Positions 21,518 through 52,632 of a stretch of DNA of 64,000 nt are shown here, piece by piece. The first letter of the stretch is position 1, and the number at the start of each line of letters is the position of its first letter. Made by a program: the position numbers and the translations under genes. Origin of the DNA: Pelagomonas calceolata (lineage: Eukaryota); the NCBI GenBank assembly GCA_918797485.1, contig CAKKNE010000004.1, positions 4,588,001 to 4,652,000 of the forward strand, read 5' to 3'. The notes beneath the pieces were generated by a model. It was not told the DNA's origin. It worked only from the letters and a program-made list of their open reading frames with translations, and ran no database searches.

Positions 21518-23533
21518 CTAGACGGGCCCCGCGAGGCGACCACACCGCCCCGATACCAGGTCGCCGAGGTCGCGCGCGAGCTCCCCCGCGGCCGGCCTCT
21601 TCTCCCAGCGCGGGTCCAGCATCGCCGCCAGCAACGCCCGTTCCCGCGCCGCCGGCAGCGCTTTTTCCCGCGCCTGCCTGGCGAGGAGCCGGCACTGCGC
21701 GGCGGGATTTCGTATCGCCGGGGGCGCCGCGCGGAGGAGCCCGCCGAAGCTCGTCGCGTTCCAGGCTTTGATCGGTACGGCCGTCGTGTCGCGACCGCCG
21801 AGCCGTTTTCTCGTGGCGCCGTACTCTTCATTTAACCGCAGCAACCACTCGCGAAGAGCTCTTCGATCTCCCCAATCGCCACCGCACCGCAAGAGCAGGA
21901 ACACGAACCCGGCGCTCCAGACGTCGCTCGCCGGCGTCTTCCGCACGTGGCCCGCCTCGGGTGCTAGCACTCGCGAGCCCGCCACGTGCGGACACCGTCC
22001 CGCGCCGACGACGCACGCCCGCCCAAAGTCCGAGATTTTCCACCGCATGGCCGGCCCCGCGCCCGCGAACAGCAGATTGCCGGCGTGGACGTCCTGGTTG
22101 ACGATGCCGGCGGCGTGCGCCGCCGCCAGGCCCCGCAGCAGGTCGTGCGCCGCGCGCAGCGCAAAGCACGACCGGTAGCGGCGGCGCGGCACGTACTGGC
22201 GGAGCGGGCCGGTGTCGTTCGCGACGAGGAGCTGCAGCAGATTGCCGTCCATTTTTCCGTAGGCGGCGACGCGGTCGCGCGCGCCGCGGCGAAAGCACGC
22301 CTCCGCCGTCAGCACGTGCTCGCCGGAGACGTTCAGCAGCGCCGGCAGGAGGTCGCCGGCCAGATGATCCGCGAAGGTCGCGCCCGCCTTCAGGACCACG
22401 CGTCGCCGCGTGCGCGTGTCCGTGGCGGCGTCGACGGTCAAGACGACGCCCGTGCGGGGCCCCAGGGGCGACAACCGCGCGCGATCGACGAAGCGCGCCT
22501 CGTCGAAGGGCGCGTCGCAGAAGCGGTCGAGGCGCTCGTCGCTTGCGACGGCGGCGGCCAGGAGTGTGCGCCGCACGCGATGCGACGCGGCGGCAAGGTC
22601 GAGGACCTCGACGCGCGCGCCCGGCCCGCGGGCGCGGAGGACGAGCGCCGCGCGGTGCGGGCGCGCGACGATCACGTCGCCGCGCACGACGACGGGCCGC
22701 CGTCTTACGACGCCGTCGCAGCCGCACGCATCGTCCACGTAACTCGCGTTAACGACGGCCGCGGCGAGCAGGCCGAACGCGCGGGGCGTCGTGGCGTCCT
22801 CGACCGCGCCCGCTTCGACCGCTTTGCGGAAGGAGTCCTCGTACGCGTCAGCGCCGCGGGCGGCCGGGGACGAGCCGAGGGGCACGGGCGCGGCGCAGCG
22901 CGGCGCGTGGGCGGGGCACGGCACGCGCAGCGAGCCGACGTTCACGACCGCGGCGCGCCCGGCCGCGAACCACGGTGCGCCGGCCGGGAGCGCGTAGGAG
23001 GCCCGCGGGGGCTGCCCCGTCATGTTCAGCACGTCGTCGGCGTCCTCCGCGTCGTCCGTGACGTGTACGATGAAGTTCGCGCCGCAGCGCGCGAGGTCCT
23101 TCGACACAGGCGGGTCGTACCGCGACCGGAGCGCATGCTTGACGGCGTGCATGGACGTCGAGCCGGCGGGGGCGTAGGCGGTGAGCACGTACGCCTTGCG
23201 GTAGTCGAGCGCTTCCAGGTGCGCAGCTTTGACGCGCATGCACTCCACGAATTTTCCCGGATTCGTGTTGGGCAGCTTTCGGTACACGCGCCGGGCGAAC
23301 TCGGTCACGTTGCGCATCGCGAAGGGCTCGACGCGCAGCACGTGGACGCCCGCGCCGCGGAAGGCGTCCAGCGCGGCCTCGACGTGCCGCATGCCGTGCT
23401 GCCAAATGATGGACGCGTGCCAGAGGCCGCGGGCCCTGCGGCAGGGCCGCGATCCGGCACTCCATTCGGGCGGGAACGCGGGCGCGAGCGGCTGCGCGGC
23501 GGCGAGGCAGGCGAGCGCCGCGATCCGGCGCAT
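21518..23533 (-). CDS. Signal-peptide protein with C-terminal protein kinase-like domain
   Basis: MRRIAALACLAAAQP signal; VVLKA, IVNQDVHAGNLL, KISDFG, LAPE, SDVWSAG, AMLDPRWEKRP kinase subdomains. Confidence 0.8.
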   Translation of the reverse strand: MRRIAALACLAAAQPLAPAFPPEWSAGSRPCRRARGLWHASIIWQHGMRHVEAALDAFRGAGVHVLRVEPFAMRNVTEFARRVYRKLPNTNPGKFVECMRVKAAHLEALDYRKAYVLTAYAPAGSTSMHAVKHALRSRYDPPVSKDLARCGANFIVHVTDDAEDADDVLNMTGQPPRASYALPAGAPWFAAGRAAVVNVGSLRVPCPAHAPRCAAPVPLGSSPAARGADAYEDSFRKAVEAGAVEDATTPRAFGLLAAAVVNASYVDDACGCDGVVRRRPVVVRGDVIVARPHRAALVLRARGPGARVEVLDLAAASHRVRRTLLAAAVASDERLDRFCDAPFDEARFVDRARLSPLGPRTGVVLTVDAATDTRTRRRVVLKAGATFADHLAGDLLPALLNVSGEHVLTAEACFRRGARDRVAAYGKMDGNLLQLLVANDTGPLRQYVPRRRYRSCFALRAAHDLLRGLAAAHAAGIVNQDVHAGNLLFAGAGPAMRWKISDFGRACVVGAGRCPHVAGSRVLAPEAGHVRKTPASDVWSAGFVFLLLRCGGDWGDRRALREWLLRLNEEYGATRKRLGGRDTTAVPIKAWNATSFGGLLRAAPPAIRNPAAQCRLLARQAREKALPAARERALLAAMLDPRWEKRPAAGELARDLGDLVSGRCGRLAGPV

Positions 23534-23715
23534 CCGCACTCACGCCGAGTTCCGGGCCGCGTCGACACACTCTGCAGAGCCTCTGCAGAGCCTCTCAGGC
23601 ATTCTCTCAATCATGCATTCGCACGACGCGATGCGCATGCGAAGGCTGCCCAGTTCGACGGCATCGCACAGGCTGCCCGGCAGAGCACGGCTGCTCTCGG
23701 AGGGGAACGCGCGTC

Positions 23716-23739
23716 GCCAGCGGCCGGTAAGACACTAGT
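23716..23739 (-). promoter_or_regulatory. 24-bp motif copy
   Basis: Reverse complement ACTAGTGTCTTACCGGCCGCTGGC between divergent genes. Confidence 0.5.
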
Positions 23740-23998
23740 TGGCGCTCTCCTTGGGGCTTTGAGGGGCAGCAAGTCTCGTTTTTTGCAACCGCTAGGCGAG
23801 GGGGGCTATAACAACATACATACTAGCATGAGATTTGAAGACACGCCTGGCATGGGCAGGGAGGGAAAGCTTATGCTAAGGACTAGGCATTGCAGCACTG
23901 AGAATTGTGCCTTGCGACGTCTGCTCGCTGCCCGGGCAGCGAGCGACAGCGTGCCGGCTGAATCAATCAACTAGTGAGCCAGGACCTGCCAAACCCTT

Positions 23999-26900
23999 AT
24001 GGCGCAGCACGACGGAGGGGGCAGCGTGAAAGCCATCGTGAAAGCGGAGCCCGTTGGAGGGCTCTCGTCCCTGCTGCTGGACGAGGCGATGGCTGCCGAG
24101 GCGCCCTACCCTTGCGGCCGCTGCGGAGCGTTCCACGGCAACGAGAGCGGCTACTGCTCGGCCTGCTCCGCCGGCTGGTTCAACTATTCCCTCGTCGCGA
24201 AGACCGGTCGGCTCCAGCGGCGATCGTACCTCGCGCTCGTGACGCTCGTGATGAGCTACTTCGAGACCAGCGACCGGCTCGTACTCTCGGTGTTCGTCGG
24301 CTCGACGGGGCTCATCGTGTTCTTCTGGTTCCTCACCAAGAGTATCGCCACCGCGGCGCCGGCCTGGATCGCCGCGCTCGTGCTCTACGTCGTCGCGGTG
24401 CTCTACTTGATCCCGACGATCCGCGGCACCGTGGTCACGATCGAGGACGTCGACAAGATCAGCGCGCTATTCGACGCGGCCACCAAAACGTGCCTCGATG
24501 GTGTGGCGGAAACTGACGCGGGGCCGGAGCCTCACAAATGTGAAGGCGAACAACTTGTGCAGCCGACTTCCGAGCTGCGGCGCCTCTACGTCCTGGCGCG
24601 CGCGCGGCTCGCGGGCTTCGAGGTGGAAGTCGTCGAGTGCCTGGCGCGCGCGGACCGCGAGCCGACGGAGCCGCGCGAGACCAAGGCGGCGCAGCTCAAA
24701 CAATTGTTCCGCGCGCGGGAGAAGGTCGCCGTGGATTACGGCGGCAGAGGGGAGCGCCTGCGCGACGTGTTGCGGGCTTCGATCGTGTGCGAGACGGTGG
24801 GCGAGTTACAGACGCTCGGGGACGCGCTGAGGGCTCTCGAAGCGGCCGGAACCGTGCGCGTGCTGCAGATAAAGAACCGGTTTCGGGGGCATCCGACGCC
24901 GTCGGGGTATCGCGACGTCAACGTCAGCCTCCTCTACCACGGCTTCATCGCCGAGCTGCAGATTCACCTCCGGGCGATCATGTCCATCGCGGAAAGGCAG
25001 CACGTCGCCTATGAGTACGCTCGAGAGATGGACTTGATGGGCGTGCTCGAGAAGCCGGTCGAAGACACAAACTGCATGGCCTCGGTGCGCCGCCAGGGCA
25101 TCACCTACCTCGTCGCGAGGATGGTGCCCGCGACGCTGAGCGTCGTGATCGGCTGGCTCTACGTCGACGCCTTCTGCCTCAGGGGCGCCAATCTCATCGT
25201 CAAGCGGGCGGATCTGTTACCGACGCGCAAATCCAGTCCACCCTACGTCTTGCTGCGAGTGTACGGCCTCATCTTGGCCGCGCCGTACTGGGCGAACGCC
25301 TTTCTACTGTGTCGCGCCGCCGGTTTCTTTGGCGAAAAGGCGCGGCAGCAGCGGCACGAGAAGACGCGCGTCGCGATGCTCTACGAGCGCTACTTTGGCT
25401 ACGACGGCACGCTGTTTGTCTGGAAGATCTTCTGCTTCCAAATCTGCGAGGTGGCCCTGCAGTCCTTCGGGAAACTACCGCTATTCCTCATTTGGTCGTC
25501 GCCCTTCGACTGCCTGCGTGCGACCTGTAGAAATAGGATAAAATCGAAAAGCTTCGGGAAGGCCATGAGCGAGGGCCGGAGCGCCTCCTTCCTACACGCG
25601 TTCGTGATATTTTTCTTCGCGGCGCTCCTGGTCAACGTCCTCTATCCGACCTTCCTTCTGCGGACGCGGCACGTCTTCTATCAGCGGAACTTCTCCTTTA
25701 TTGCTGACACGGTGCTCGACGTCATATACGCCCTCGTGCCCTTTATTTTTCTCGGGCTCGGAGTGCGCTCCCAGCCGATGATCATCCCCCACGACCCAAT
25801 AGAATACACTTCCAACCTGTTTCCCATGCTTCACGCTCATTTTGTGATATCAGTCCTGGAGAGAGCGGCGGAAGAGCGGCGGGCGCTGCGAAAAGAAGCC
25901 GTCGTGACGGCGTCGGGCGTGTCGGATAAGTTGAGTGGCGGTGACGATGAGGAAGGCGCGACCGCGGCGCCGGGCGCGGCCGGCGACGGGGCCGTATCAA
26001 CCAGCAAATACGCGCCGCAGCTGTATGTGGCGCTCGTCGTCGCATGCGTCGCCTCGTGGTGCGTCGCTTTCTGCGCGATTGGCCTCGAGCTGCAGATCAC
26101 TACTACCGCGTTCTTCTTTGTGACAAGTCTAGCGCTTCCACTGGCCGCGCGCGCCGCCGGGCGGCCGTCGTTCTCGACGTGGATGCCGGCGCTCGGCCTC
26201 GGTCCGGTTTACATAGCGATATTCTGGGCCCGCGCCAGCCCCGTGTTCTTGTGCTGGGCTCTCGTCGCGCACGGAGCCCTAGTCCTTTTCTCGGCGCCGG
26301 AGACGGATACTGGGCCGCAAACGCGCGCGTCCATGGCGGCCGGGCAGGGCCGCCTGCCGCGCTGGGGCGCTGCCGCGTACTTTCTCATTACGGCCGGAAG
26401 CGTCGTCACCGCGACAATGCTCTACCTTTCCGGTAACGCTGTATACTCGACGTGTCAGCCGTGTGAATGCGATGCGAAAGGCGTCCTCCTCAATTGCGAC
26501 GTGTTCGCCGAGGCGGAGTCGTTGACGTTGGTGAAAGGACTGAACGTGAATGCGTTCGTCAAAGAACTCTACCTTACTAACAAGGGCATCACCGAAATCC
26601 GCCCGGGCGCGTTCAAAGGGCTCCCGAACCTTGAAAAGCTCGTTCTGAAGAACAATAAGATCGACGGACTCGAGCCTCGGACCTTCGAGGGCCTCCACTC
26701 GATCCATCGCATCGAGCTCCAGCGAAACGACATCACATCAAAAGCAAAAGTAAAGTGCGGCGCGCTCGACGGTGCCCGCCGCGACGATGCTGGCATCAAC
26801 GTGAGGGTTGACCGAGACGAACTCTTCTGCAGCGAATATCGACACATCTCCCACATCACGCCGTGTTCGTGCTATGACATCCCGGACCAATGCACAACGG

Positions 26901-29900
26901 CCACCCAGGAACAGCTGGATTCGTACTACGTCCCCAAGCTTTCCGATGATTCGTTCATCGCGCTCTCGTGGAGAGATGCGGAGCGGTACTGCGAGAGCCC
27001 GTGGGTGATGGCGTCCGGCAGCGCGCACCTAGTGACCATTAGATCTGAGGCGGACCTGGACGCGATGAACGAACTCATGGGGTGTCGAGACTTCTGGATT
27101 GGCTACGACAGGCAGGGAAATGACACGTCCTGGAAGTGGACCTCCGGCGACGCGAGCACGTTCGAGGAGTGGGGCGGACGCGGGCCGGGCGCCTCTCGGG
27201 GCGGTTTCGATTGCGCCACCCAGTCCAACCTCGGGGAATGGTACCCCATGTTGTGCGAGCTACCAGTCCGGTATCCCTTCGTCTGCGAGCTGGCCGAGGG
27301 CTCCGCCTGGACGTGGCCTACGGCAGCGCCGACAACGATCGCGCCCTCTGTTTCGCCAAAGCCGACCATGGACCTGGACCTGCCCCTAGCTCTGGCAATC
27401 GATGGCACGAAAGACACTTTCTACTACGATGCGCCGCTCTGGACAAACGATGAGCTTTTGGACGAGGGCGGAGAGTCGAAGACAGACGAATTCTTCACGC
27501 CCTCGACCACGTTTACGGTCGTGATGCGGACGGGGTCTGAGGATAGGACGCTTATCATCGAGCTCAGTCACCCGAAGAGCCTGAAAGAATTATTTAGCGG
27601 TGGCTACACGAAAACGTCGGCCAGTTTAGACGAGTGGCGCGGCCTCGTGCCGAACGCGGGGTACCAAGAAAACTGCAACCACCAGGGCTTCAACGTGGCC
27701 GCGGACAACTGCTATGTTGACGACTTTTCGGACTGGAAGTGTAGACTGCGCCTCGGGATCTGGTTCAACGAGCAAAACGACTGTCGGTCATCAGATAGCT
27801 TCGTAGGCCTCGGCGCGACCGAGTGGTCGTCGGGGTCGGTCTGCGAAGAGGCGGACGAGGGCCAATGCCTCAACGTGCCTTCGTTTACGCGCATCTATGT
27901 AGGCGGTGTAACGGCACCGCCGACCTTCTCGCCAGAGCCGTCCCGAGCCCCGACCACCGCCGTTCCGACGTCGTCGCTGGCCCCGACGTCGTCACTTCCT
28001 GTCCCGACTATCGCGTGCGGAGAGACTCGGACTGGTTCCACGGTCAACGAAGCGCATTGGCTGTCAGGCAACGACGCGCCCGACCACTTCTATTTGATCA
28101 CGCCTTCCGAGACTGCGTACTATCACTTCTCGACCTGCGGATCGAGTTTTGACACGACGCTATACCTATATCATGTGCAGAATTCCAGTAGCTTTGACAG
28201 CTGCCTCCGGGAACCGGCACCGCACGCGGGCTTTGTGGAGAATATCGAGAAGAATATGGACGATGAAGGATGGCAAAACTGCGTCTTCAAAATGCCAAGT
28301 TCGTCTAGGGATGACCTTGAGGATTTCTGGACCAAGCAGGAGTTAGAGGCCGGCGAGACGTATGTACTGCAGGTCACCGGACATGCGGACCAAGAGTGCT
28401 GGGAGGACAACGAGCGCGATGCGTCGGCCGCCGGGGATTACGTCCTGTCGGTCGAGTGCGCCGATGAACCCGTCGACACTTGGTGTCTCGGTTTTGAGTG
28501 GTGCACGGATAAACAATTAGGGGAGGACGGAACTGGATTTTGCAACGAGGTGCGAAATGACTTGGACGGCTACTGCGTGACCGACGCGGACTGTGAGGCA
28601 AAATCGAGCTGCTACGCGGACTGCGCGGCTACACCGGGCTGCGACCAGCCTTTCCTTATGTGTGACGAGGGCGTCTGCCACTCATACATTTTAGACGAAC
28701 GGTGCGACGGTCAAGATGACGACTTTGACCTAGGTGATGGTTATTCGTGTTGGTCGGATGATGAGGGCACCGGTTGGCGCGAGGCCCATTGCTCCATGTT
28801 TGCGCGGATGGATCCTCCAGATTACTCCTCCCTGGACCTAGCCTTCCGGGCAAGAGATTGCTATGAGTACACGGAGGGCCCGCAGGTGGAGTACCGGACA
28901 ACAATGTTCCTGCCTGCTATCACACCCCAGGACTGCCTCGATCAGTGCGCGGACGAGGAGTGGTCAACGGCCGCCATCATATCGGCCGACGGCAGTCTTT
29001 GCGAATGCGTCGGCGGAGAAGTGCTAAAGTGTTATCTCCGGGCAGCTGGCACGCCAGATACGAGTACGATTGACGCGCTCGCTGGAAAAAAACGTGTGTG
29101 TCACACGAGAGACGTTGACCTCGGCGGCGCCGAGTACAAAGACGTTTGTAGCTACGACTACCCGTGCGAGGGCAGGTGTCATAGCAGCTACACTACGATG
29201 CAGTGCGACGGAAACGGACATATCTGGCAGGGGGAACAGTGCGACTCCTGCGACTCCTCAGGCTGTGAGCCATACGACCTGACGGCGCAGTGGGGAGGCT
29301 GGGTGGTATGTGATCCGGCCACAAATGCGTGGGGCTTTGACAATGATTTCAACGGTGTGCTCGACTGGGTGTCCGGTTATATTATGCCATGCTCGTATGA
29401 TGAATGGTGCGAACGGGCGGAATGCGAGCCCTCTGGCGACGTCACTTCCTCTCCTAGCGGCACGACGAACCGCGGCACCGGGAACGGGTATTGCTCCGGC
29501 GGCCTGGAAGAATGGATGGGCTGCGCCAAATCGCCGGCGGATTGCTGGGAACTGTGCGTGAGCGACCACCTCGACGACCTCGTGGCCATCAACTGGGAGA
29601 AGGACGACGACTCGTGCTACTGCCAGACCGGCTGCCAGTGCATGAAGGACATCGGCGACGACGAACTCTACCTCATCACGCGCGACTCGGCGGTCGCGCA
29701 GCTGCCGGATATGTGCGACGACGACGACGACGACGACGACGAGGAATGTTACATCGAGACGTCCGACGACCTCAGCTCCTCTCCGAGCGGCACCACGAAC
29801 CACGGCGCCGGGAATGGATGGTGCTACAGCGAACTGGACGACTTATTGGGCTGCGCGGCGTCGCCGGGCGATTGCTTTAGTATGTGTGAGGACTCTTTCG

Positions 29901-31420
29901 GCGACGATCTCGTGGCCATTGACTGGGGGGACGAAGGCGACTGCTACTGCCAACACGACTGCGAGTGCATGGAGGACGTTGGTGACTCGGAGGATACCTA
30001 CCTCATCACGCGCGACTCAGCCGTCGCCGCGCTGCCGCACGAGTGTGGCCCCGGCGAAGGTGAAAACGCGGATGAGGACGAGGACGGCGACGAAGACGAG
30101 GAGTGCTGCGTCCATCACACTTACTGGGCCGACGGCTCGTTGGCCGGGACTACGTGCCCTCAATGCTGTTCGCCATTCGACGCCTCTACGATGAGCAGCA
30201 TCGGAAATGCGGGCTGTACGGGCTATTCCGATGCCGGTGAGGTGGCACCACCCTTCCTCGATTGCAGGCAGGAGGCGATCGACGCGGGGAGCTGCGGAAC
30301 GGGGCACATCTGCGCGACGTGCGCCGACTATGGCGTTCCCACGGGCCAGTACTGGTCGTTTGTCGGCTACGCATCGTGCCCCGACTGGGTGGTGGACGCC
30401 CTCTACGAGGATGCCGAAGACGGCGGCAATTGCGAGTCACATTTGGACGAGGATGGCGACGAGGACGATTGGACCGACGGCCCAGCTGGCTATTGCGATG
30501 GCGATCAAGAGGTCGAGCTAGGCGAGACGGCCTCGCGCGAGGAGTGCATCGACGCCTGCGAAGAGGCAGGATACGAAGCCATGGCGTGGGACACAATCGG
30601 GGGGGAGTGCTACTGCTTCATAGAGGAGTGGTGCGACTGCGTCGAGGAGTACGCCGTGGACTACGAGGACTGCTGGTGCGGCGAGACCGACGACGGGTTC
30701 GACCCCGAAGGCATGTCCGAGAGCGAGTGCGCCGCGGCGGGATGTGACCACTATTCTGAATTAGGGGGGGCCTGGTGCGAATGTGAGGAAGCCATGTGCG
30801 CGTCGGCCGGGGGGCAGTGGCAGTGCGAGGCCTTTGGGCCGATGGCTTTCAAGGGCTTTACGCGAGGGGTGTGTGACGACGAGGACGGCGACGAGGACGG
30901 GGACGAGGACGACATGGTTTGCGACTACGACTATACTCACTCGTACGGTGGTAACTCCTGCCGAGGTCCTTCCGCTTGCGGCTGCGGAGAGGACTCCTTC
31001 TGTAATTTCGTCGACGGAGACAGCGGGGGATGCGAGGCATGCTCCGACTTCGACAGCGTGTCGGAGTGCTACTACGGCAACGACATGCCGAGAGACGGCA
31101 AGGTCGATTGTTCTTCGTGTTGTTTCCCCCGGGAAAACCCCGGCAGCTACGTAAATCCGTTCGACGAGTCGGACCTTGCTCAATGCTTCGAGTGCGTGAG
31201 CGAAGAATGCGAGGAAGACGCGACGTACGAGACTATATGCAGCGGCTGCCTCGGCGAGGAGTGCAATGCGTGCAAGTTAGCCTTTGGCGCGGACGACCTC
31301 GAGGCCTTCGTGAGCGGCGGCTGCGACTACTTCGATGACGACTCGGACTCGGACATCGGCAGATGGTTTTGGTTCGAGGGCTGCGGGCTCCTGCGGGGGT
31401 GTGCGTACAGCTGCTCGTAG
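23999..31420 (+). CDS. Giant multi-pass membrane protein: Zn-finger + RelA/SpoT-like domain + TMs + LRR + C-type lectin + Cys/Asp-rich ectodomain
   Basis: Uninterrupted 2473-aa ORF. Motifs: LKQLFRAREK, LRDVLRASIV, IKNRF..PTPSGYRDVN, AELQIH; LYLTNKGITEIRPGAFKGL (LRR); SWRDAERYC...FWIG...WYPMLC...FVCE (CTL). Confidence 0.88.
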   Translation: MAQHDGGGSVKAIVKAEPVGGLSSLLLDEAMAAEAPYPCGRCGAFHGNESGYCSACSAGWFNYSLVAKTGRLQRRSYLALVTLVMSYFETSDRLVLSVFVGSTGLIVFFWFLTKSIATAAPAWIAALVLYVVAVLYLIPTIRGTVVTIEDVDKISALFDAATKTCLDGVAETDAGPEPHKCEGEQLVQPTSELRRLYVLARARLAGFEVEVVECLARADREPTEPRETKAAQLKQLFRAREKVAVDYGGRGERLRDVLRASIVCETVGELQTLGDALRALEAAGTVRVLQIKNRFRGHPTPSGYRDVNVSLLYHGFIAELQIHLRAIMSIAERQHVAYEYAREMDLMGVLEKPVEDTNCMASVRRQGITYLVARMVPATLSVVIGWLYVDAFCLRGANLIVKRADLLPTRKSSPPYVLLRVYGLILAAPYWANAFLLCRAAGFFGEKARQQRHEKTRVAMLYERYFGYDGTLFVWKIFCFQICEVALQSFGKLPLFLIWSSPFDCLRATCRNRIKSKSFGKAMSEGRSASFLHAFVIFFFAALLVNVLYPTFLLRTRHVFYQRNFSFIADTVLDVIYALVPFIFLGLGVRSQPMIIPHDPIEYTSNLFPMLHAHFVISVLERAAEERRALRKEAVVTASGVSDKLSGGDDEEGATAAPGAAGDGAVSTSKYAPQLYVALVVACVASWCVAFCAIGLELQITTTAFFFVTSLALPLAARAAGRPSFSTWMPALGLGPVYIAIFWARASPVFLCWALVAHGALVLFSAPETDTGPQTRASMAAGQGRLPRWGAAAYFLITAGSVVTATMLYLSGNAVYSTCQPCECDAKGVLLNCDVFAEAESLTLVKGLNVNAFVKELYLTNKGITEIRPGAFKGLPNLEKLVLKNNKIDGLEPRTFEGLHSIHRIELQRNDITSKAKVKCGALDGARRDDAGINVRVDRDELFCSEYRHISHITPCSCYDIPDQCTTATQEQLDSYYVPKLSDDSFIALSWRDAERYCESPWVMASGSAHLVTIRSEADLDAMNELMGCRDFWIGYDRQGNDTSWKWTSGDASTFEEWGGRGPGASRGGFDCATQSNLGEWYPMLCELPVRYPFVCELAEGSAWTWPTAAPTTIAPSVSPKPTMDLDLPLALAIDGTKDTFYYDAPLWTNDELLDEGGESKTDEFFTPSTTFTVVMRTGSEDRTLIIELSHPKSLKELFSGGYTKTSASLDEWRGLVPNAGYQENCNHQGFNVAADNCYVDDFSDWKCRLRLGIWFNEQNDCRSSDSFVGLGATEWSSGSVCEEADEGQCLNVPSFTRIYVGGVTAPPTFSPEPSRAPTTAVPTSSLAPTSSLPVPTIACGETRTGSTVNEAHWLSGNDAPDHFYLITPSETAYYHFSTCGSSFDTTLYLYHVQNSSSFDSCLREPAPHAGFVENIEKNMDDEGWQNCVFKMPSSSRDDLEDFWTKQELEAGETYVLQVTGHADQECWEDNERDASAAGDYVLSVECADEPVDTWCLGFEWCTDKQLGEDGTGFCNEVRNDLDGYCVTDADCEAKSSCYADCAATPGCDQPFLMCDEGVCHSYILDERCDGQDDDFDLGDGYSCWSDDEGTGWREAHCSMFARMDPPDYSSLDLAFRARDCYEYTEGPQVEYRTTMFLPAITPQDCLDQCADEEWSTAAIISADGSLCECVGGEVLKCYLRAAGTPDTSTIDALAGKKRVCHTRDVDLGGAEYKDVCSYDYPCEGRCHSSYTTMQCDGNGHIWQGEQCDSCDSSGCEPYDLTAQWGGWVVCDPATNAWGFDNDFNGVLDWVSGYIMPCSYDEWCERAECEPSGDVTSSPSGTTNRGTGNGYCSGGLEEWMGCAKSPADCWELCVSDHLDDLVAINWEKDDDSCYCQTGCQCMKDIGDDELYLITRDSAVAQLPDMCDDDDDDDDEECYIETSDDLSSSPSGTTNHGAGNGWCYSELDDLLGCAASPGDCFSMCEDSFGDDLVAIDWGDEGDCYCQHDCECMEDVGDSEDTYLITRDSAVAALPHECGPGEGENADEDEDGDEDEECCVHHTYWADGSLAGTTCPQCCSPFDASTMSSIGNAGCTGYSDAGEVAPPFLDCRQEAIDAGSCGTGHICATCADYGVPTGQYWSFVGYASCPDWVVDALYEDAEDGGNCESHLDEDGDEDDWTDGPAGYCDGDQEVELGETASREECIDACEEAGYEAMAWDTIGGECYCFIEEWCDCVEEYAVDYEDCWCGETDDGFDPEGMSESECAAAGCDHYSELGGAWCECEEAMCASAGGQWQCEAFGPMAFKGFTRGVCDDEDGDEDGDEDDMVCDYDYTHSYGGNSCRGPSACGCGEDSFCNFVDGDSGGCEACSDFDSVSECYYGNDMPRDGKVDCSSCCFPRENPGSYVNPFDESDLAQCFECVSEECEEDATYETICSGCLGEECNACKLAFGADDLEAFVSGGCDYFDDDSDSDIGRWFWFEGCGLLRGCAYSCS
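29447..30046 (+). repeat. Intragenic duplication of a ~270-bp Cys-rich module
   Basis: SSPSGTTN.G.GNG.C...DLVAI.W...CYCQ..C.CM.D.GD...YLITRDSAVA.LP..C occurs at ~29447-29716 and ~29777-30046. Confidence 0.9.
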
Positions 31421-31561
31421 CTTTCCGAAGCGCCTCTTCTACCTTCTTTGCGAGAGCTTTTTGCTGTTTCCTTCCCGAACTCAGATAGGGACTCGAATAA
31501 CAATATACATCCTAAATAAAGCGCGCGCCTGGTCCAGCAGATATTAGAACCACTTACGCTC

Positions 31562-32929
31562 CTAGACCGCCTGCGCGCGCCGCTCGGCCTCGTTCGCGCG
31601 CTCGAGCTTGACGACCTCGGCCTCGATCTTCGACGCCTGGGCCGAGAGGTAGGCGAGGGACTGGTGATGCGCGTTCACGATCTTCATAATATCTCTGGAT
31701 TTCTCGTCGCCATTCTCGTCGTGCGACAGGTTCAACTTCGTCACGACGTCCTTGAGCTGGTCGAGCATGCCCCCGAGCTGCGTCTCGAGGCGCACGCTCA
31801 AATCATAAGCGTGCTCCCGCTCGACGTCGGCGTCGAGCGGCGGCCGCACGGCACTTCTCGCGAACAGGTCGTCGACGTGGCGCTCCATCGCATCTAAATC
31901 CCCGTCCAGGTCGTCCTGGTAGGCCCGCACCTCGTCCAGCACTTTCTCCGTGCGCTGCTGCGCGACCACCAGCTTCTCCGCGTACGCCGACACCTCGACG
32001 ATTTCCCGCTGCGACGCCCGGATCTCGTTCTCCCACTCCCGTAGCTGCTCCGTCTGCTTCGTGAACTCCGCCACGTCGGCCTCCAAACTCGCCTTCCAGC
32101 CCTGGACGATCTCCTCTACCGACTTGTTGCGCACGTCGGCGGGCGGCGCCGGCACGGCGGCGAGCGGTTGCTGTTGCTGTTGCGGCGCGGCGGCGCCGAA
32201 GGAGAGTGTGGGTGCTGTTGTGGCAGGGGCTGGTGCGGCGGCACCGAATGACAGCGCGGCGGCGGGCGCGGGTGCCGGTGCGCCGAACGACAGCGTCGGC
32301 GCGGCGGCGGCCGGCGCGGGCGCCGCGGCGGCCCCGAAGAGCCCTCCGGCGGCAGCTGCGGGCGCCGGCGCGGCGGCGGGAGTTGCACCGAACAGCGGCG
32401 CGGGCGCGGCGGCGGCCGGCGCTCCAAAGGAGAACCCTCCTGCCGCCGCGGGCGCCGGAGCCGCAGCGGGTGTGGCCGCCGCGGGCGCCCCAAACAGGCC
32501 GCCCGCAGCAGCGGGAGCGGGCGCCGCGGCGGCGCCGAAGGCCGCGGGCGTCGCGGACGCCGGCGCGCCGAAGGAGAAGCCGCCCGCGGCGGCCGGTGCG
32601 GGCGCCGCCGCGGCTGGCGTGGCCGCAGAAGGTGCGCCAAATAACCCCCCAGCGGGGGCCGCCGCGGGCGGGGCGGCCGGAGCGCCGAATGAAAAACCAC
32701 CGCCAGCCGCCGCGGCGGGTGCGGGCGCGGCGGCGGCCGGAGCGCCAAATGCTGGCGCCGTCGTGCCACCAGCTGGCGCTCCAAAGCTAAATCCGCCCGC
32801 GGGCGCAGGCGTCGCCGCTGGCGCGCCAAAGGCTGGAGCGGCACCTCCCGCAGGGGCGCCAAAGGAGAAGGTCGCCGCCGCCGGCGCAGGGGCCCCGGCG
32901 GGTGCGGGCGCGCCGAATGAAAAAGCCAT
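31562..32929 (-). CDS. NUP62: FG nucleoporin Nup62/Nsp1
   Basis: Many FSFG/GLFG repeats, then NKSVEEIVQGWKASLE...F..Q...LREWE...EREHAYDLS (Nsp1 C-terminal coiled coil). Confidence 0.88.
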   Translation of the reverse strand: MAFSFGAPAPAGAPAPAAATFSFGAPAGGAAPAFGAPAATPAPAGGFSFGAPAGGTTAPAFGAPAAAAPAPAAAAGGGFSFGAPAAPPAAAPAGGLFGAPSAATPAAAAPAPAAAGGFSFGAPASATPAAFGAAAAPAPAAAGGLFGAPAAATPAAAPAPAAAGGFSFGAPAAAAPAPLFGATPAAAPAPAAAAGGLFGAAAAPAPAAAAPTLSFGAPAPAPAAALSFGAAAPAPATTAPTLSFGAAAPQQQQQPLAAVPAPPADVRNKSVEEIVQGWKASLEADVAEFTKQTEQLREWENEIRASQREIVEVSAYAEKLVVAQQRTEKVLDEVRAYQDDLDGDLDAMERHVDDLFARSAVRPPLDADVEREHAYDLSVRLETQLGGMLDQLKDVVTKLNLSHDENGDEKSRDIMKIVNAHHQSLAYLSAQASKIEAEVVKLERANEAERRAQAV

Positions 32930-46702: not shown

Positions 46703-49700
46703 ATGATCCGCACCGTCCTAGCCGCCGCCGTAGCGCGCGCGGCCCTGGCGGACCTCCACGCCCTCGCCCCAGCCACGAGAGAAGAGCACCGTCCCGCCGT
46801 CAAGCGCAGCGCGGAGAGGGCGGCCAAAGCGTCGCGGCTCCTCGCGGATCACGGCCACCTGCTCCCCCCGGCGCTGCGGCAGAAGGGCCAGGACATTCTG
46901 AACGAGCACGAGTTCCGTCTGCACGTGGCCCTCGACAGCGCGAACCCGGGCCTGGCGCTCGCGGCCATCGAGAAGAAGGAATCGGGGTACCTCAAGGCCT
47001 TTGCGAAGCTCGGAGGCGACAACGCGGTGTCGAAGGCCCGCAAGCTGCCGAAAGACGACGAGCGCACGAAGTTCCGCGCGACGCGCGTGGTGCTCCGAGA
47101 GGCGACGGGCATCGACGCCGAGGAACCGGTCTGGGGCGCGCCGTTCCGGGCGCTCGAAGCGCTGTTCGGCGATGGCCACGCGCCGATGGAGGCGCTCGGC
47201 GTTTCGGCCAAGTTCTTCGAAGATGGAAGGTCTCTGACGAAGCGGTACCACGTCGCGCTCCAGCCGCCGTGCGACTGCTGGACGTTTGGGCGCGCCGCTG
47301 TTGTTGAGCAAGCGAGAGGCGTCGCCGAATCCCTGAAAGCGCCGCCGCTCGTCGACACCTGGCTCGATGCCATCGCGGCCGACGACACCGGGAAGCTGCC
47401 GAGCATTGGGTTTGGCGTGAGCGCGGACGACGGCGCGTGCAAGCTCTACGTCCTGAATTTTGGCGGCCACGAGCTCCCTACCTTACCGCTCGTCGATTCG
47501 TTACCGCCGACCGCGCGCAAGCCGGACCGGGCCTCCTCGGTCATGGTCTCGGTCGAGTGGAAGTTCGGCGACGCGAAGACGCAGCTGCGCCAGTACGCCG
47601 TCGAGGCGTCCGCGGATGACGTCTCCGTCGCGCGCCACACGCAGGGCGAGCGCTTCGCCGGCGACGAGCTCGTGGCGGCGCTCGACCGCGCGTTCGGGGT
47701 CAAGCAGAGCGAGGACATCGCCGTGACGGCGCCGTTTCAATACGACAAGGCCACGACGCCGCCGGTCGCCGCCGCGCCGCTCGCGAAGTCGGGCCTCAAG
47801 CTGAAGAACGGCGGCGACCTCGACGCGAACGCGGATGCCGACGCAAAGCTGGCGGCCCTGCTGAACAACGCACCGGGCGCCGAAGCGTGGCTCGCCCGGT
47901 CGCGCGTCGTACGACATGCGGTCTCGAACGTCCAGTTCGGCGAGGGCTTTGTTACGTTGTACAGACACCCGACGGTGTTCGGCTTCGTGGACCCGTCCTC
48001 GTCGCCGCAACACCTCGCGCTGAGAAACGCGCTCGCCAAGAGGACGCGCGCGACACGGCGGCGGCTCGACGACATGACGGCGTGCGACCTGGCGGAGGAG
48101 ACCTTTATGGACAACATGATTTGGGGAGGGGAAAGCGAGTGCAAGGACGACAAGGAGGCGTTCCCCGGCATGTGTCCGGCGTCGTGCCAGGCCGACATCG
48201 AAGATCTCATCGCTGCGTGCGACGAGTGCGCCCTCACGGACGCCGTCTGCGACGCGACCGTGGACACCGACTTGTACCCCAGTCTGGCCGGGGAGCTGCG
48301 GTTCGAGTACAAGGCGCCCGTGGTCATGGCCGGCGGCGACATGGACGACGACTGTTATAAGTACCTAGACGAGAACGAGGACGAGGAAGGCCTCGAGGGC
48401 CAGCTCGAGGACGACATGCAGTGCCTCGACCGGGACGAGCCGGACTTCGACTGCTGGGTCGAAGACCACGAAAACGGCGACGGCACGGCCACGATCGGCT
48501 GCGAAGGCTGTTCGTCGGACGGGACACAATCCGGCTTCGAGGCTGCGATGGCGACGTTCTTCCAGAATCTCGTCGCGAGCACGGGCGGCCCGTGCAGCTT
48601 CGACGCCAGCGCGTCCCTGGTGGCGCTGGGCGGGGCGTCCGGCTCGCCCACGAATTCGAAGTACAGCGACCTCGACAGCGAATTAGTCCCGGACGACATG
48701 AAAGTGCGATTCCCCTACGGCGACAACGGACTGTTCGACGTGATGAGCCTCTGGGGCCCCGAGGGCTGCCGGTACCCGTACTACGGCTACCTGCCGGACG
48801 CGCCGCTCTGCGACGAGTGCTCGTCGATGTTCGAGGCCAAGGAGGACATCCTAAAGGGTCTGTGGGATGGCCCGTGCAACTCGGAAGACCCGCCGGGGGA
48901 CGACGACTCGCTGCCGCTGCCGCCGAACTACCCCGGCTGCGGCTGCGACTGCGCGGACTTTCTTCGGAGAGACCTCTCCACGTGCTCGTCCGACTCGTGC
49001 GTCAACGTCGCGCAGGAATACGCCTCTCCGAATACCGTCTGCAGCGGCTCCGACGTCAGTTGGGACACGACCTCGTCTGCGGATGGCTGCGCCGACACCT
49101 ACGGCGACGGGTCCTTCGCCTCAATCTGGGGCGACGCGTGCCTCGACGACGACGGCGAGGTCCAGGGCGCCTCCGAGCAGTGCTACGAGACACTGGACGA
49201 CCTTCAACCGACCTTCCGGCCTACGACGTTAATGCCCTGCCCCGACGAAGAGAGCGCTTACCTGACGTGCGTGAATGCGGCGGCCCAAAACGGGGTTGAC
49301 GCGTCGGCCGGCCTCGGATGGGGTTGCTGCGACCAGGACGCCGTCGACGGTGGATCCTTTCCGAGCACTTGCGTCGGCATGCAAACGTACTCCGAGTTCC
49401 AGGACGCGTGCGGCGATCCGGCCCCGGAGTGCGCGGCGGAATGGTCGACCTACATCGAGTGCGTGTACGCGGAAGTCGTCGACGTGATAAATGGGGATCT
49501 CACTGGGGCGGCTCCGCTGAACTGCGACCTCAGCTGCACGCTGGACCCGACACCAGCGCCAAGCCACCACCCGACCCCGCCGCCGTCGGTCAGACCGACG
49601 CCCCGCCCCACGCCGGTACCAAGCCGCCGCCCGACCCCGCGGCCGTCGGTCAGAGCGACGCCCCGCCCCACGCCGGTACCAAGCCGCCGCCCGACCCCGC

Positions 49701-51895: not shown

Positions 51896-52632
51896 GAGCT
51901 GACGAGTCCGTAACAATGACACGAGGACGCGGAGGGGCGGCCGCGCGAGGCGCTCGAGGACGGCTTCCTCGTCGTCCTTCTGCGAGTCGTCGTCCGAGCT
52001 GAAGGGGTCGGCGGCCGCCTCGCCTGCGCGCGGGGGCCGCGGGTGTCGGCGCTTTGAATTTGGGCCGCTTTTTTATGCTATCTTCCAAACGGTCTCGCGC
52101 GGCGCGAGGGCGGCCTTTTTCGACGCGGCGCCGCGCCCGTCGCGGTCTGGGCCGTCTGATAGCTCTTGGGCCGCGGCATTTCTGGTCTCGGGGCCACTGC
52201 TGGCGGTGATTGGGGCAGTAAAAGGTCGAGCTCTGCCTTTGTTTGCTAAATGCCTCTCCCTAAACGGCAAAATTCGAGAAGGACGCACGACGCTTCCAAG
52301 AGACCCCCTTCCGCCTCCCAAACGAGATGGCCGAGCTTTTGCTGAAAGCAGCACGAACGTCGTCGACGACGCGCCCGCGGCTGGGAATATCTCCCTGCCC
52401 CACTACAATCGTGTCAGGAGGCGTCCAATACGCATTGATTTCACTGTCAATTGACTCCCCGCATGATCGAAAACCCGATTTGCAGACTGCAGGCTGCACT
52501 TTGCGTCGTCGCGCACGCAGCATCAACGGACGCTACTTACCTGTTGATGCTCGCATAGTTCGACACACCTCACAGACTCATCGCTCTCCTAGTTTCGTCA
52601 TCGCTGCTGCCGCAGCCATCAGAAGCACCACC

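What the first reader, a model, noticed from the sequence alone, without database searches (positions are those of the whole stretch)
23999..31420. Receptor-like RelA/SpoT synthetase: alarmone-type nucleotide domain wired to an LRR/C-type-lectin ectodomain in a eukaryote
Seen in one 2473-aa ORF, in order: an A20-like Zn finger (CGRCGAFHGNESGYCSAC); ~3 TMs; a soluble domain (~24570-25030) with LKQLFRAREK, LRDVLRASIV, IKNRF..PTPSGYRDVN, AELQIH and H.AYEY; ~10 more hydrophobic helices; then LRRs, a C-type lectin domain and ~1300 aa of further, largely Cys/Asp-rich modules. Established: the motif order matches RelA/SpoT synthetase motifs (RxK..S..K, D..G.R, GY.S.H, ExQ), and LRR/CTL are ligand- and glycan-sensing domains. 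Inference: a surface receptor that makes a nucleotide second messenger on binding a microbe, virus or glycan. The GYRDVN variant in place of GYxSxH hints at a product other than ppGpp. No plastid-targeting signal or hydrolase domain is visible, unlike ordinary algal RSHs.
Basis: partly seen in the sequence, partly recalled or inferred. Interest (0 to 1): 0.85.

Follow-up and report, generated by a model that had tools for sequence, protein, structure and literature searches.

The report
Algal surface receptor with alarmone synthetase
A marine alga carries a transcribed gene, one of a wide family, for a multi-pass membrane protein that joins a variable leucine-rich/lectin region, likely outside the cell, to a domain predicted to fold like bacterial alarmone synthetases, which would likely make a ppApp/ppGpp-type nucleotide inside the cell when the outer part binds something.

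Summary
The 2473-aa ORF and every quoted motif are real, and sense-strand polyA reads lie along it with no intron-type joint. Residues 186-345 model confidently (pLDDT 92) as a RelA/SpoT synthetase domain (best Z 14.8; pol-beta polymerases 8.0 or less). Its catalytic residues are kept in 33-36 of 36 aligned relatives. Its closest solved relative by sequence is the (p)ppApp toxin Tas1/Apk1, and the nearest phage relatives sit in toxin / small ORF / hydrolase operons. The protein belongs to a broad family: 20 of the best 150 clusters at 50% identity share the core membrane hairpin - synthetase - polar helix bundle, and 13 of those 20 also have an LRR hit. Outer modules are shuffled between paralogues. 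Loop charges in distant members place the enzyme in the cytosol and the LRR/lectin part outside (about 80%). Best reading: a ligand-gated receptor making (p)ppApp and/or (p)ppGpp in the cytosol, probably for defence. Product, ligand and gating are untested. The GYRDVN Asn does not fix the product, and the 'A20' label has no Pfam support. Fungal NLRs with a RelA_SpoT effector are a precedent; ten literature searches found no surface receptor of this kind.

The parts
23999..31420 (+). Single-exon ORF, 2473 aa (P0001), multi-pass receptor-like protein
   Evidence: sense-strand polyA reads in every bin of the ORF in run X21, no GT-AG joint listed
24113..24166 (+). C-x2-C-x10-C-x2-C motif (aa 39-56), likely a cytosolic zinc knuckle; optional in the family
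   Evidence: no zf-A20 hit
24224..24262 (+). Short hydrophobic helix h1 (aa 76-88) ending in conserved T82-M85-E89; likely re-entrant, not crossing
   Evidence: inference from loop charges
24278..24418 (+). Membrane hairpin TM2-TM3 (aa 94-140)
24554..25033 (+). RelA/SpoT-type synthetase (pyrophosphokinase) domain, aa 186-345; K234, R238, K242, Y247, D256, R259, K292, G303, Y304, D306, N308, E319, Q321, H335, Y338
   Evidence: model pLDDT 92.1, pTM 0.84; Foldseek and VIA; Tas1 E 2.5e-16 by profile; conservation
25100..25858 (+). Six-helix membrane block TM4-TM9 (aa 368-620) with a conserved polar core (K476, Q481, Q488, K492, N546, R563, D570, D574, P609, E621); no Pfam family
26018..26293 (+). 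Four extra helices TM10-TM13 (aa 674-765), absent in most distant members
26363..26428 (+). Last membrane helix TM14 (aa 789-810)
26453..26788 (+). Cys cap (CxPCxC) and leucine-rich repeats (aa 819-930)
   Evidence: Pfam LRR_8; cap conserved
26963..27289 (+). C-type lectin domain (aa 989-1097)
   Evidence: Pfam Lectin_C
27386..29398 (+). Unannotated outer modules M1-M4 (aa 1130-1800); M3 also occurs between TM10 and TM11 of other paralogues
   Evidence: no meaningful Pfam hit; no PDB hit for M1 or M2; module map
29426..30058 (+). Tandem pair of a Cys-rich module (M5, aa 1810-2020), shared with other paralogues
30092..31417 (+). Acidic, Cys-rich tail (M6-M10, aa 2032-2473), missing from the 82%-identical paralogue P0111; M6 sits in an outer loop of other paralogues; aa 2154-2287 is shared with other transcripts
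   Evidence: (loose ends at 30458, 30858)

Best explanation
This is a multi-pass membrane protein whose LRR, lectin and Cys-rich C-terminal part likely lies outside the cell, while a domain predicted to have the RelA/SpoT synthetase fold likely sits in the cytosol between TM3 and TM4 and would make (p)ppApp and/or (p)ppGpp when the outer part binds a ligand. Steps: (1) an outer module binds a microbe, virus or glycan (inferred from domain types and from shuffling among paralogues); (2) the change passes through the conserved polar helix bundle and the conserved linkers that tie the enzyme to the membrane on both sides (G175-P176 and Q188; R342, L346, G348) (inferred); (3) the enzyme moves pyrophosphate from ATP to the 3'-OH of a purine nucleotide (fold and residues shown by prediction and alignment; activity untested); (4) the product drains ATP/GTP or acts as a messenger, most likely as a defence or growth-arrest response, as toxic small alarmone synthetases do in bacteria (inferred, weakest step). 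My odds per step: fold 0.95, enzyme cytosolic 0.8, active on free purine nucleotides 0.7, gated from outside 0.6, defence role 0.45.
For: Fold: every listed Foldseek row (to rank 50) is an RSH synthetase; VIA ranks 1-26 are RSH, Z 14.8-9.0, against 8.0 or less for the next folds. Active site: D256 34 of 35, R259 35 of 36, Y304 36 of 36, N308 34 of 36, E319 and Q321 35 of 36, H335 34 of 36, Y338 36 of 36 non-gap rows, over members down to about 35% identity; R259, N308 and E319 align with Apk1 R330, N370 and E382 (alignment plus a 21-residue offset that I inferred from the numbers in PMC12691689). Kinship to toxic synthetases: Tas1 is the best PDB sequence hit of both profiles (E 0.001; E 2.5e-16); 6 of 11 phage loci read synthetase - 70-76-aa ORF - HD_4 hydrolase (2 of the other 5 end at the match), the Apk2-Tis1-Aph1 layout (PMC10083569). 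Family: 20 of the best 150 representatives have synthetase plus TM4-9, 13 of these 20 also an LRR hit; all 25 receptor-type domains lie on one side of a branch with SH-aLRT 98 in a 95-row tree. Topology in 27 distant members: net negative TM2-3 loop in 15 of 18; net positive after TM3 in 12 of 19 (0 negative) and before TM4 in 20 of 23; net negative after TM4 in 14 of 23; alternation continues to TM9; from there one helix (or five) leads to the Cys cap and LRRs; Cys-rich modules of this protein's tail sit between TM10 and TM11 in paralogues. The conserved N308 forms an N-x-S/T sequon in 9 of 34 rows, which would be a liability in the lumen. Ectodomains differ in number and order of modules; against paralogue P0111 the core is 89-94% identical and the outer modules 56-88%.
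Against: No activity, product or ligand data. The model of aa 30-930 is poor (pLDDT 56.4, pTM 0.36), so topology rests on charges and hydropathy. In the 9 near members the TM4-5 loop is net positive in 8 of 9 and h1 looks as hydrophobic as TM5 by my approximate scale, which by themselves would put the enzyme outside; the cytosolic reading needs h1 not to cross, and its C-side loop is acidic. By structure Tas1 (Z 11.9) does not beat the ppGpp enzymes SAS1/SAS2 (14.8, 13.5). The Asn is not fixed in the nearest bacterial/phage relatives (L, M or N). No immunity-like or hydrolase gene was found in the window and the genome could not be searched. RNA depth over the enzyme part is very low (0-2x; bin 24720-25003 covered in 1 of 4 runs) and all four runs are one sample. 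Nothing here links the gene to infection. LRR and C-type lectin domains also serve adhesion.
Confidence: 0.5

Rival explanations
1. Same receptor layout, but the acceptor is the 3' end of tRNA or another RNA, so that activation shuts down translation, as with CapRel and FaRel2.
For: CapRel is an RSH enzyme that is itself switched on by a phage protein (PMC11782079) and matches the model at Z 11.2-11.5 over 157 residues. A eukaryotic cytosol has no known use for ppGpp (own knowledge), whereas tRNA is a universal target.
Against: FaRel2 matches less well (Z 7.6); no tRNA-targeting enzyme is among the 12 PDB profile hits, where Tas1 leads; nearest phage relatives carry an HD_4 hydrolase next door, which fits a nucleotide product.
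Confidence: 0.12
2. The enzyme faces outward (or into a vacuole) on the same side as the LRRs: a surface-tethered exported alarmone synthetase that makes alarmones near bound bacteria.
For: Three hydrophobic helices precede it; h1 has a strongly basic N-flank and acidic C-flank; the TM4-5 loop is basic in 8 of 9 near members; exported alarmone synthetases exist in bacteria (PMC12691689) and SaEAS matches at Z 12.5.
Against: Distant members show basic junctions on both sides of the enzyme and acidic loops beyond TM2 and TM4; one has a Cys-containing acidic loop after TM4 (P0221); two or four helices, an even number, lie between the enzyme and the basic TM5-6 loop in the rows I inspected; sequon on the conserved Asn in 9 of 34; only one Cys of the domain is conserved (C264).
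Confidence: 0.13
3. The main function lies in the polar membrane bundle (channel, transporter or inside-out adhesion switch), and the RSH domain senses or turns over ATP/GTP to regulate it.
For: TM6-TM9 keep buried polar and charged residues as strictly as the enzyme keeps its active site (K476 25 of 30, Q481 28 of 30, Q488 29 of 31, D570 25 of 28, D574 24 of 28). One member (P0316) keeps the bundle and LRRs with a degenerate enzyme.
Against: Donor-site and acceptor-site residues are both kept, more than binding alone needs; no transporter or channel match in Pfam, the Atlas (first hit 0.85, unnamed) or Foldseek, though the model was weak there.
Confidence: 0.12
4. It is a receptor-synthetase, but for nutrients, mating or surface attachment, with a low-level messenger role and no link to defence.
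Against: Origin among conflict-system enzymes (PAAR, MuF, eCIS, VgrG-type fusions among the next hits) and strong ectodomain shuffling are typical of non-self recognition.
Confidence: 0.1
5. An ordinary plastid RSH for ppGpp signalling, fused by chance or misassembled.
For: Algae have nuclear RSH genes for the plastid (PMC6881373).
Against: No hydrolase, TGS or ACT domain, no hydrophobic leader before aa 76; the same fusion recurs in 20 clusters under 50% identity to each other and in two proteins whose sources label them complete transcripts (P0152, P0139).
Confidence: 0.03

Closest known systems
Tas1/Apk1 (PDB 6ox6) and Apk2, (p)ppApp-making toxic small alarmone synthetases
   Same: Best sequence match in the PDB (E 2.5e-16 by profile; 25% identity in the structural alignment, the highest of the 50 rows); K-x3-R-x3-K, DY.GD, D-x-x-R, GY-x3-N, E-x-Q, H-x-x-Y; nearest phage relatives have the Apk2-type operon.
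   Different: No PAAR or MuF delivery domain, no immunity gene or hydrolase in the window; the domain is inserted in a 14-helix membrane protein of a eukaryote.
Exported alarmone synthetase SaEAS (PDB 8vx3)
   Same: Same fold (Z 12.5), Asn at the same motif position, stand-alone synthetase without immunity gene.
   Different: SaEAS is a secreted single-domain bacterial enzyme; here the domain is most likely cytosolic and tied to a membrane bundle and ectodomain.
Small alarmone synthetases SAS1/RelQ and SAS2/RelP
   Same: Top structural matches (Z 14.8, 13.5).
   Different: They carry GYxSxH (seen for YwaC), make (p)ppGpp and are soluble oligomers.
Fungal NLRs with an N-terminal RelA_SpoT effector domain (Dyrka et al. 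2014, PMC4986451)
   Same: A eukaryotic non-plastid RelA/SpoT domain used as the output of a modular, shuffled non-self receptor (in silico only).
   Different: Those are intracellular NACHT proteins with WD/ANK/TPR sensors; this one has no NOD domain and senses across a membrane with LRR and lectin modules.
Plastid RSH enzymes of diatoms and plants (PtRSH1, PtRSH4a/b; PMC6881373)
   Same: Algal nuclear gene with a synthetase domain.
   Different: No plastid leader, no hydrolase domain; 'LRR' and 'transmembrane' do not occur in that paper's main text.
Enzyme-linked LRR receptors (plant LRR receptor kinases, Toll-like receptors, receptor cyclases) - recalled
   Same: Outer Cys-capped LRRs coupled to an inner signalling domain.
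   Different: Reverse order (enzyme N-terminal, sensor C-terminal), many membrane helices, and a pyrophosphokinase as output.

Membership tests
RelA/SpoT homologue (RSH) synthetase domain | SYNTH fold | tested here: met
   Z 14.8, rmsd 2.9 over 148 residues to 5ded
RelA/SpoT homologue (RSH) synthetase domain | Catalytic Asp, Glu-x-Gln, basic donor-site residues, G-loop Tyr | tested here: met
   D256, R259, Y304, E319, Q321, K234, R238, K242 kept
RelA/SpoT homologue (RSH) synthetase domain | Pfam PF04607 at its curated cut-off | tested here: not met
   no hit for P0001; receptor-type relatives reach 23-25.4 bits against 27
RelA/SpoT homologue (RSH) synthetase domain | Pyrophosphate transfer from ATP to a 3'-OH | not testable with these tools
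   needs an enzyme assay
Apk1/Apk2 (p)ppApp toxins | Closest sequence relative with Asn at the N370 position | tested here: met
Apk1/Apk2 (p)ppApp toxins | PAAR or MuF delivery domain | tested here: not met
   Pfam scan of P0001
Apk1/Apk2 (p)ppApp toxins | Adjacent immunity gene or alarmone hydrolase | tested here: not met
   six phage hydrolases give only 10-19-residue matches at E 0.26-0.48 in the window; rest of the genome not searchable
Apk1/Apk2 (p)ppApp toxins | Product is (p)ppApp | not testable with these tools
   motif is not diagnostic (PMC12691689)
Plastid long RSH | N-terminal HD hydrolase domain (intact or degraded) before the synthetase | tested here: not met
   membrane helices lie there
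Plastid long RSH | Bipartite plastid-targeting leader | tested here: not met
   no hydrophobic segment in the first 70 residues; no dedicated predictor was available
NLR with RelA_SpoT effector | NACHT or NB-ARC domain | tested here: not met
A20-type zinc finger | Pfam zf-A20 match | tested here: not met
   aa 30-74 scanned alone at E<=1; none among the 25 families shown for 32 members
Enzyme-linked surface receptor (functional class) | Sensor and enzyme on opposite membrane sides | tested here: inconclusive
   loop charges of distant members favour it, near members give one contrary loop; about 80%
Enzyme-linked surface receptor (functional class) | Ligand-dependent activity | not testable with these tools
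   needs experiment

The most novel reading that the evidence does not exclude
Marine microbial eukaryotes have a widespread, undescribed class of cell-surface pattern receptors whose output is an alarmone: a bacterial/phage toxin-type synthetase was domesticated, set into a multi-pass membrane core and fitted with exchangeable LRR, lectin and Cys-rich sensors, so that contact with a virus or microbe triggers (p)ppApp/(p)ppGpp synthesis in the cytosol and growth arrest or cell death.
Probability: 0.3. Interest if true: 0.92.

Novelty: new variant of a known kind. Interest (0 to 1): 0.76.

Why it matters
Alarmones are thought of as bacterial and plastid signals; the only eukaryotic non-plastid receptor link I found in print is the untested RelA_SpoT domain of fungal NLRs. 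If this family works as inferred, abundant marine algae turn surface recognition into alarmone chemistry in the cytosol, an immune-type second messenger system beside TIR and cGAS-like enzymes. It would give a handle on how single-celled phytoplankton detect viruses and bacteria, which is largely open. It is directly testable: a 160-residue domain, two obvious catalytic mutants, a cultured host with public RNA data, and at least three paralogues with different ectodomains.

Tried and rejected
No whole genome is held for the window, so paralogue number and the presence of an alarmone hydrolase elsewhere are open. The single-domain scan of viral contigs found nothing; the profile scan did. The genome-contig scan gave 1 locus, the plasmid search 1 record. 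The structure model of aa 30-930 was too weak to read topology or the fold of the bundle. The Atlas gave unnamed eukaryote-rich clusters for the enzyme (0.96-0.97; RelA_SpoT on 34% of one cluster at rank 11) and only leads under 0.9 for the membrane block. Modules M1 and M2 have no PDB sequence hit. Hydropathy with an approximate insertion scale (values recalled, my own weighting) and flank charges of near members did not settle topology; only distant members did. Rejected: plastid RSH, chance fusion or assembly error, A20 label, 'Asn means ppApp'. GC at third positions (0.66-0.89 along the ORF; 0.65-0.80 in six neighbours) shows no recent transfer. No complex prediction was run. Earlier-findings look-ups by sequence, by a long word list and by place returned nothing. 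The tree has 36 of 92 inner branches open and no outgroup, so it does not name a donor.
Full report
1. Observation. The window holds one ORF of 2473 aa at 23999-31420 (+) among ordinary eukaryotic genes (methionyl-tRNA synthetase, Nsp1 nucleoporin, aminotransferase, translin, importin-like; 24 of the ORFs were scanned). Pfam finds LRR_8 (aa 855-912) and Lectin_C (aa 989-1097) and nothing for the putative enzyme. Cluster-mates of close relatives are labelled Pelagomonas calceolata by their sources: P0111 (82% identical over aa 20-1906) and P0152 (49% over aa 39-691), the latter auto-named 'RelA/SpoT domain-containing protein'. The window is therefore most likely from this alga (inference), with at least three paralogues.

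2. Is it one gene? Four polyA runs of one sample, 6-12% of each read, were laid on 23300-31800. First mates lie on the minus strand from bin 23868 to 31535, as expected of a plus-strand RNA; bins with any depth were 30, 28, 25 and 29 of 30. None of the six joints listed is a GT-AG intron and all lie after 29570, among repeated modules. Depth is 0-2x over the enzyme and rises to 30-85x in the tail, where loose ends (30458, 30858; aa 2154 and 2287) show that other transcripts share these modules; 35-40% of laid reads are only 95-99% alike, so strain or paralogue reads are mixed in. This shows transcription but not a single molecule. Two relatives whose sources call them complete transcripts (P0152, 1398 aa; P0139, 1082 aa) contain enzyme, membrane block and LRRs together. 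Long-read support for this copy remains open.

3. The enzyme. A model of aa 183-354 from a 61-row alignment reached pLDDT 92.1 and pTM 0.84. All Foldseek rows listed are RSH synthetases. VIA ranks SAS1 (Z 14.8, rmsd 2.9, 148 residues), SAS2 (13.5), RelP (12.8), SaEAS (12.5), Tas1 (11.9, highest identity, 25%) and CapRel (11.5); non-RSH folds start at 8.0. By sequence Tas1 is first: E 0.001 with a profile of 19 family members alone, E 2.5e-16 with phage relatives added, against 3.6e-8 for YwaC. Adding 21 to the chain numbers reproduces the Apk1 residues named in PMC12691689 (R330, K353, N370, E382); R259, N308 and E319 align with R330, N370 and E382, while the counterpart of K292 is not settled. 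In 36 aligned receptor-type proteins the catalytic columns are kept in 33-36 rows; the main exception is P0316. The product cannot be read from the motif: SaEAS has the same Asn and prefers guanylate acceptors 20-30-fold, and the position is L, M or N in bacterial and phage relatives while it is N in 24 of 25 receptor-type domains.

4. Relatives. The domain search gave 33 proteins: 31 at 55-92% identity, which also match P0001 outside the domain, and 2 phage-type at 39%. The profile of the N-terminal region hit 3132 of 1.84 billion representatives at E<=0.001, 765 at 1e-10, 51 at 1e-30. Of the best 150, 86 have a full domain, 32 the TM4-9 block and 20 both; 13 of these 20 have an LRR hit, most others being fragments. 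In a quick ML tree of 95 domains (226 reduced at 72% identity) all 25 receptor-type rows lie with 15 other rows, mostly short fragments plus one globin fusion, on one side of a branch with SH-aLRT 98. The other side holds kinase, FYVE-TPR and tandem membrane fusions that look eukaryotic, and bacterial or phage conflict proteins with PAAR, MuF, eCIS or VgrG-type domains. Six of 11 phage loci read synthetase, 70-76-aa ORF, HD_4 hydrolase, as described for Apk2 (PMC10083569).

5. Architecture. The shared core is: optional Cys knuckle, short helix h1, hairpin TM2-3, a conserved linker (G175-P176, Q188), the enzyme, a second linker (R342, L346, G348), two or four helices, the polar block TM6-9, a basic linker, a last helix, a CxPCxC cap and LRRs. 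P0001 and near paralogues add four helices (TM10-13). Outer parts vary: P0170 has more LRRs, one M5 and a C-terminal lectin; P0023, P0102, P0104, P0108 and P0109 carry modules M3 and M6 of this protein's tail in the loop between TM10 and TM11; P0111 ends after one M5 (20 selected proteins). Against P0111 the core is 89-94% identical and the outer modules fall from 88 to 56%. M1 recalls a coral skeletal-matrix domain, M2 a bacterial pre-peptidase C-terminal domain, M4-M5 WSC/PAN-type modules, and TM6-9 plus LRR an oomycete membrane protein family; these four labels are from memory and no call supports them.

6. Topology. With the N-terminus inside (no leader; basic flank) and the Cys-capped LRRs outside, one of 14 helices cannot cross. 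Near members are ambiguous: the TM4-5 loop is basic. In 27 distant members net charge alternates as expected if the enzyme is cytosolic: TM2-3 negative in 15 of 18; after TM3 positive in 12 of 19, never negative; before TM4 positive in 20 of 23; after TM4 negative in 14 of 23; before TM6 positive in 20 of 22; TM6-7 negative in 10 of 21 (positive in 3); TM7-8 positive in 14 of 21; TM8-9 negative in 11 of 19; after TM9 positive in 10 of 17 (negative in 5). This makes h1 the non-crossing helix. Against: the short h1-TM2 loop is acidic in 25 of 27, which also fits a crossing h1. The conserved Asn is part of a glycosylation sequon in 9 of 34 rows. I put the cytosolic reading at about 80%.

7. Mechanism. 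Most likely: binding at the outer modules is relayed through the polar bundle and the two fixed linkers, releasing the synthetase, which makes (p)ppApp and/or (p)ppGpp from ATP in the cytosol; by analogy with toxic synthetases (PMC11782079, PMC12691689) this would drain nucleotide pools or signal arrest. Shown: sequence, transcription, family, shuffling, conservation. Predicted: fold, topology. Inferred: catalysis, gating, ligand, defence role. Such an enzyme has to be off at rest; no immunity gene or hydrolase lies in the window, so control by the membrane core itself is the simplest guess. Overall 0.5. Rivals: tRNA acceptor 0.12, outward-facing enzyme 0.13, regulatory domain of a channel or transporter 0.12, non-defence sensing 0.10, plastid RSH 0.03.

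8. Literature. Ten full-text searches returned no paper whose listing describes this receptor family; 'Pelagomonas calceolata' with 'RelA' gave 0 papers. The library lacks most subscription papers. Seen as passages: PMC6881373, PMC5512222, PMC3482391, PMC10083569, PMC4986451, PMC11782079, bioRxiv 10.1101/2022.07.19.500537; parts 1-2 of 11 plus passages: PMC12691689; listing only: bioRxiv 10.1101/2022.03.16.484565 and the other rows. No supplements were read; tables of RSH surveys may list these proteins. The nearest precedent is RelA_SpoT as an N-terminal effector of fungal NLRs, reported from sequence alone. Earlier notes of this scan describe other eukaryotic fusions of Tas1-like domains; they are unchecked leads and are not counted as support.

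9. Verdict. Observation confirmed; interpretation largely upheld but untested at its key steps. It works like an enzyme-linked receptor with a toxic-alarmone-synthetase output; it is not a member of the Apk toxins, plastid RSHs or NLRs. New variant of a known kind, close to a new class if alarmone output is shown. Interest 0.76.

Noticed in passing
P0267 (one search hit, 424 aa): Synthetase domain from inside the receptor clade fused to a C-terminal globin (Pfam E 5.7e-22), no membrane helices: a candidate oxygen- or NO-linked alarmone synthetase.
   Followed up: partly
P0316 (1598 aa): Receptor core with LRRs whose synthetase has lost its catalytic residues and which has gained about 550 N-terminal residues without a Pfam hit (HET/TIR-like by recall): possibly a swapped output domain.
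   Followed up: partly
P0312, P0331, P0296, P0100: The same GYRD-type domain fused to a protein kinase, to FYVE plus TPR, or to TPR in soluble, eukaryote-looking proteins.
   Followed up: partly
P0269, P0299, P0309, P0334: A separate clade of membrane proteins with two synthetase domains in tandem.
   Followed up: no
L001:3077-5339, L008, L009, L011, L012, L014: Phage head-gene region: portal, synthetase, 70-76-aa ORF, HD_4 hydrolase; the synthetase of Bordetella phage PHB04 is annotated only as hypothetical. In L015-L017 the domain lies in a 785-aa ORF just after a terminase-like gene.
   Followed up: partly
window 21518-23539 (-): Head-to-head neighbour, transcribed: a protein with a signal-peptide-like start and a C-terminal kinase domain (Pfam E 1.1e-9).
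   Followed up: no
window 46703-51577 (+): 1624-aa ORF with a leader, Cys/Asp-rich region, long Pro-Thr-Arg repeat stalk, one membrane helix and a C-terminal zinc ribbon: another surface protein.
   Followed up: no
window 52327-54579 (+): Methyltransferase domain fused to a class IV aminotransferase-like domain.
   Followed up: no
P0112-P0116: Five database proteins that are 86-93% identical to P0001 and 89-96% to P0111: mosaics of the two paralogues, either assembly chimeras or real gene conversion.
   Followed up: partly
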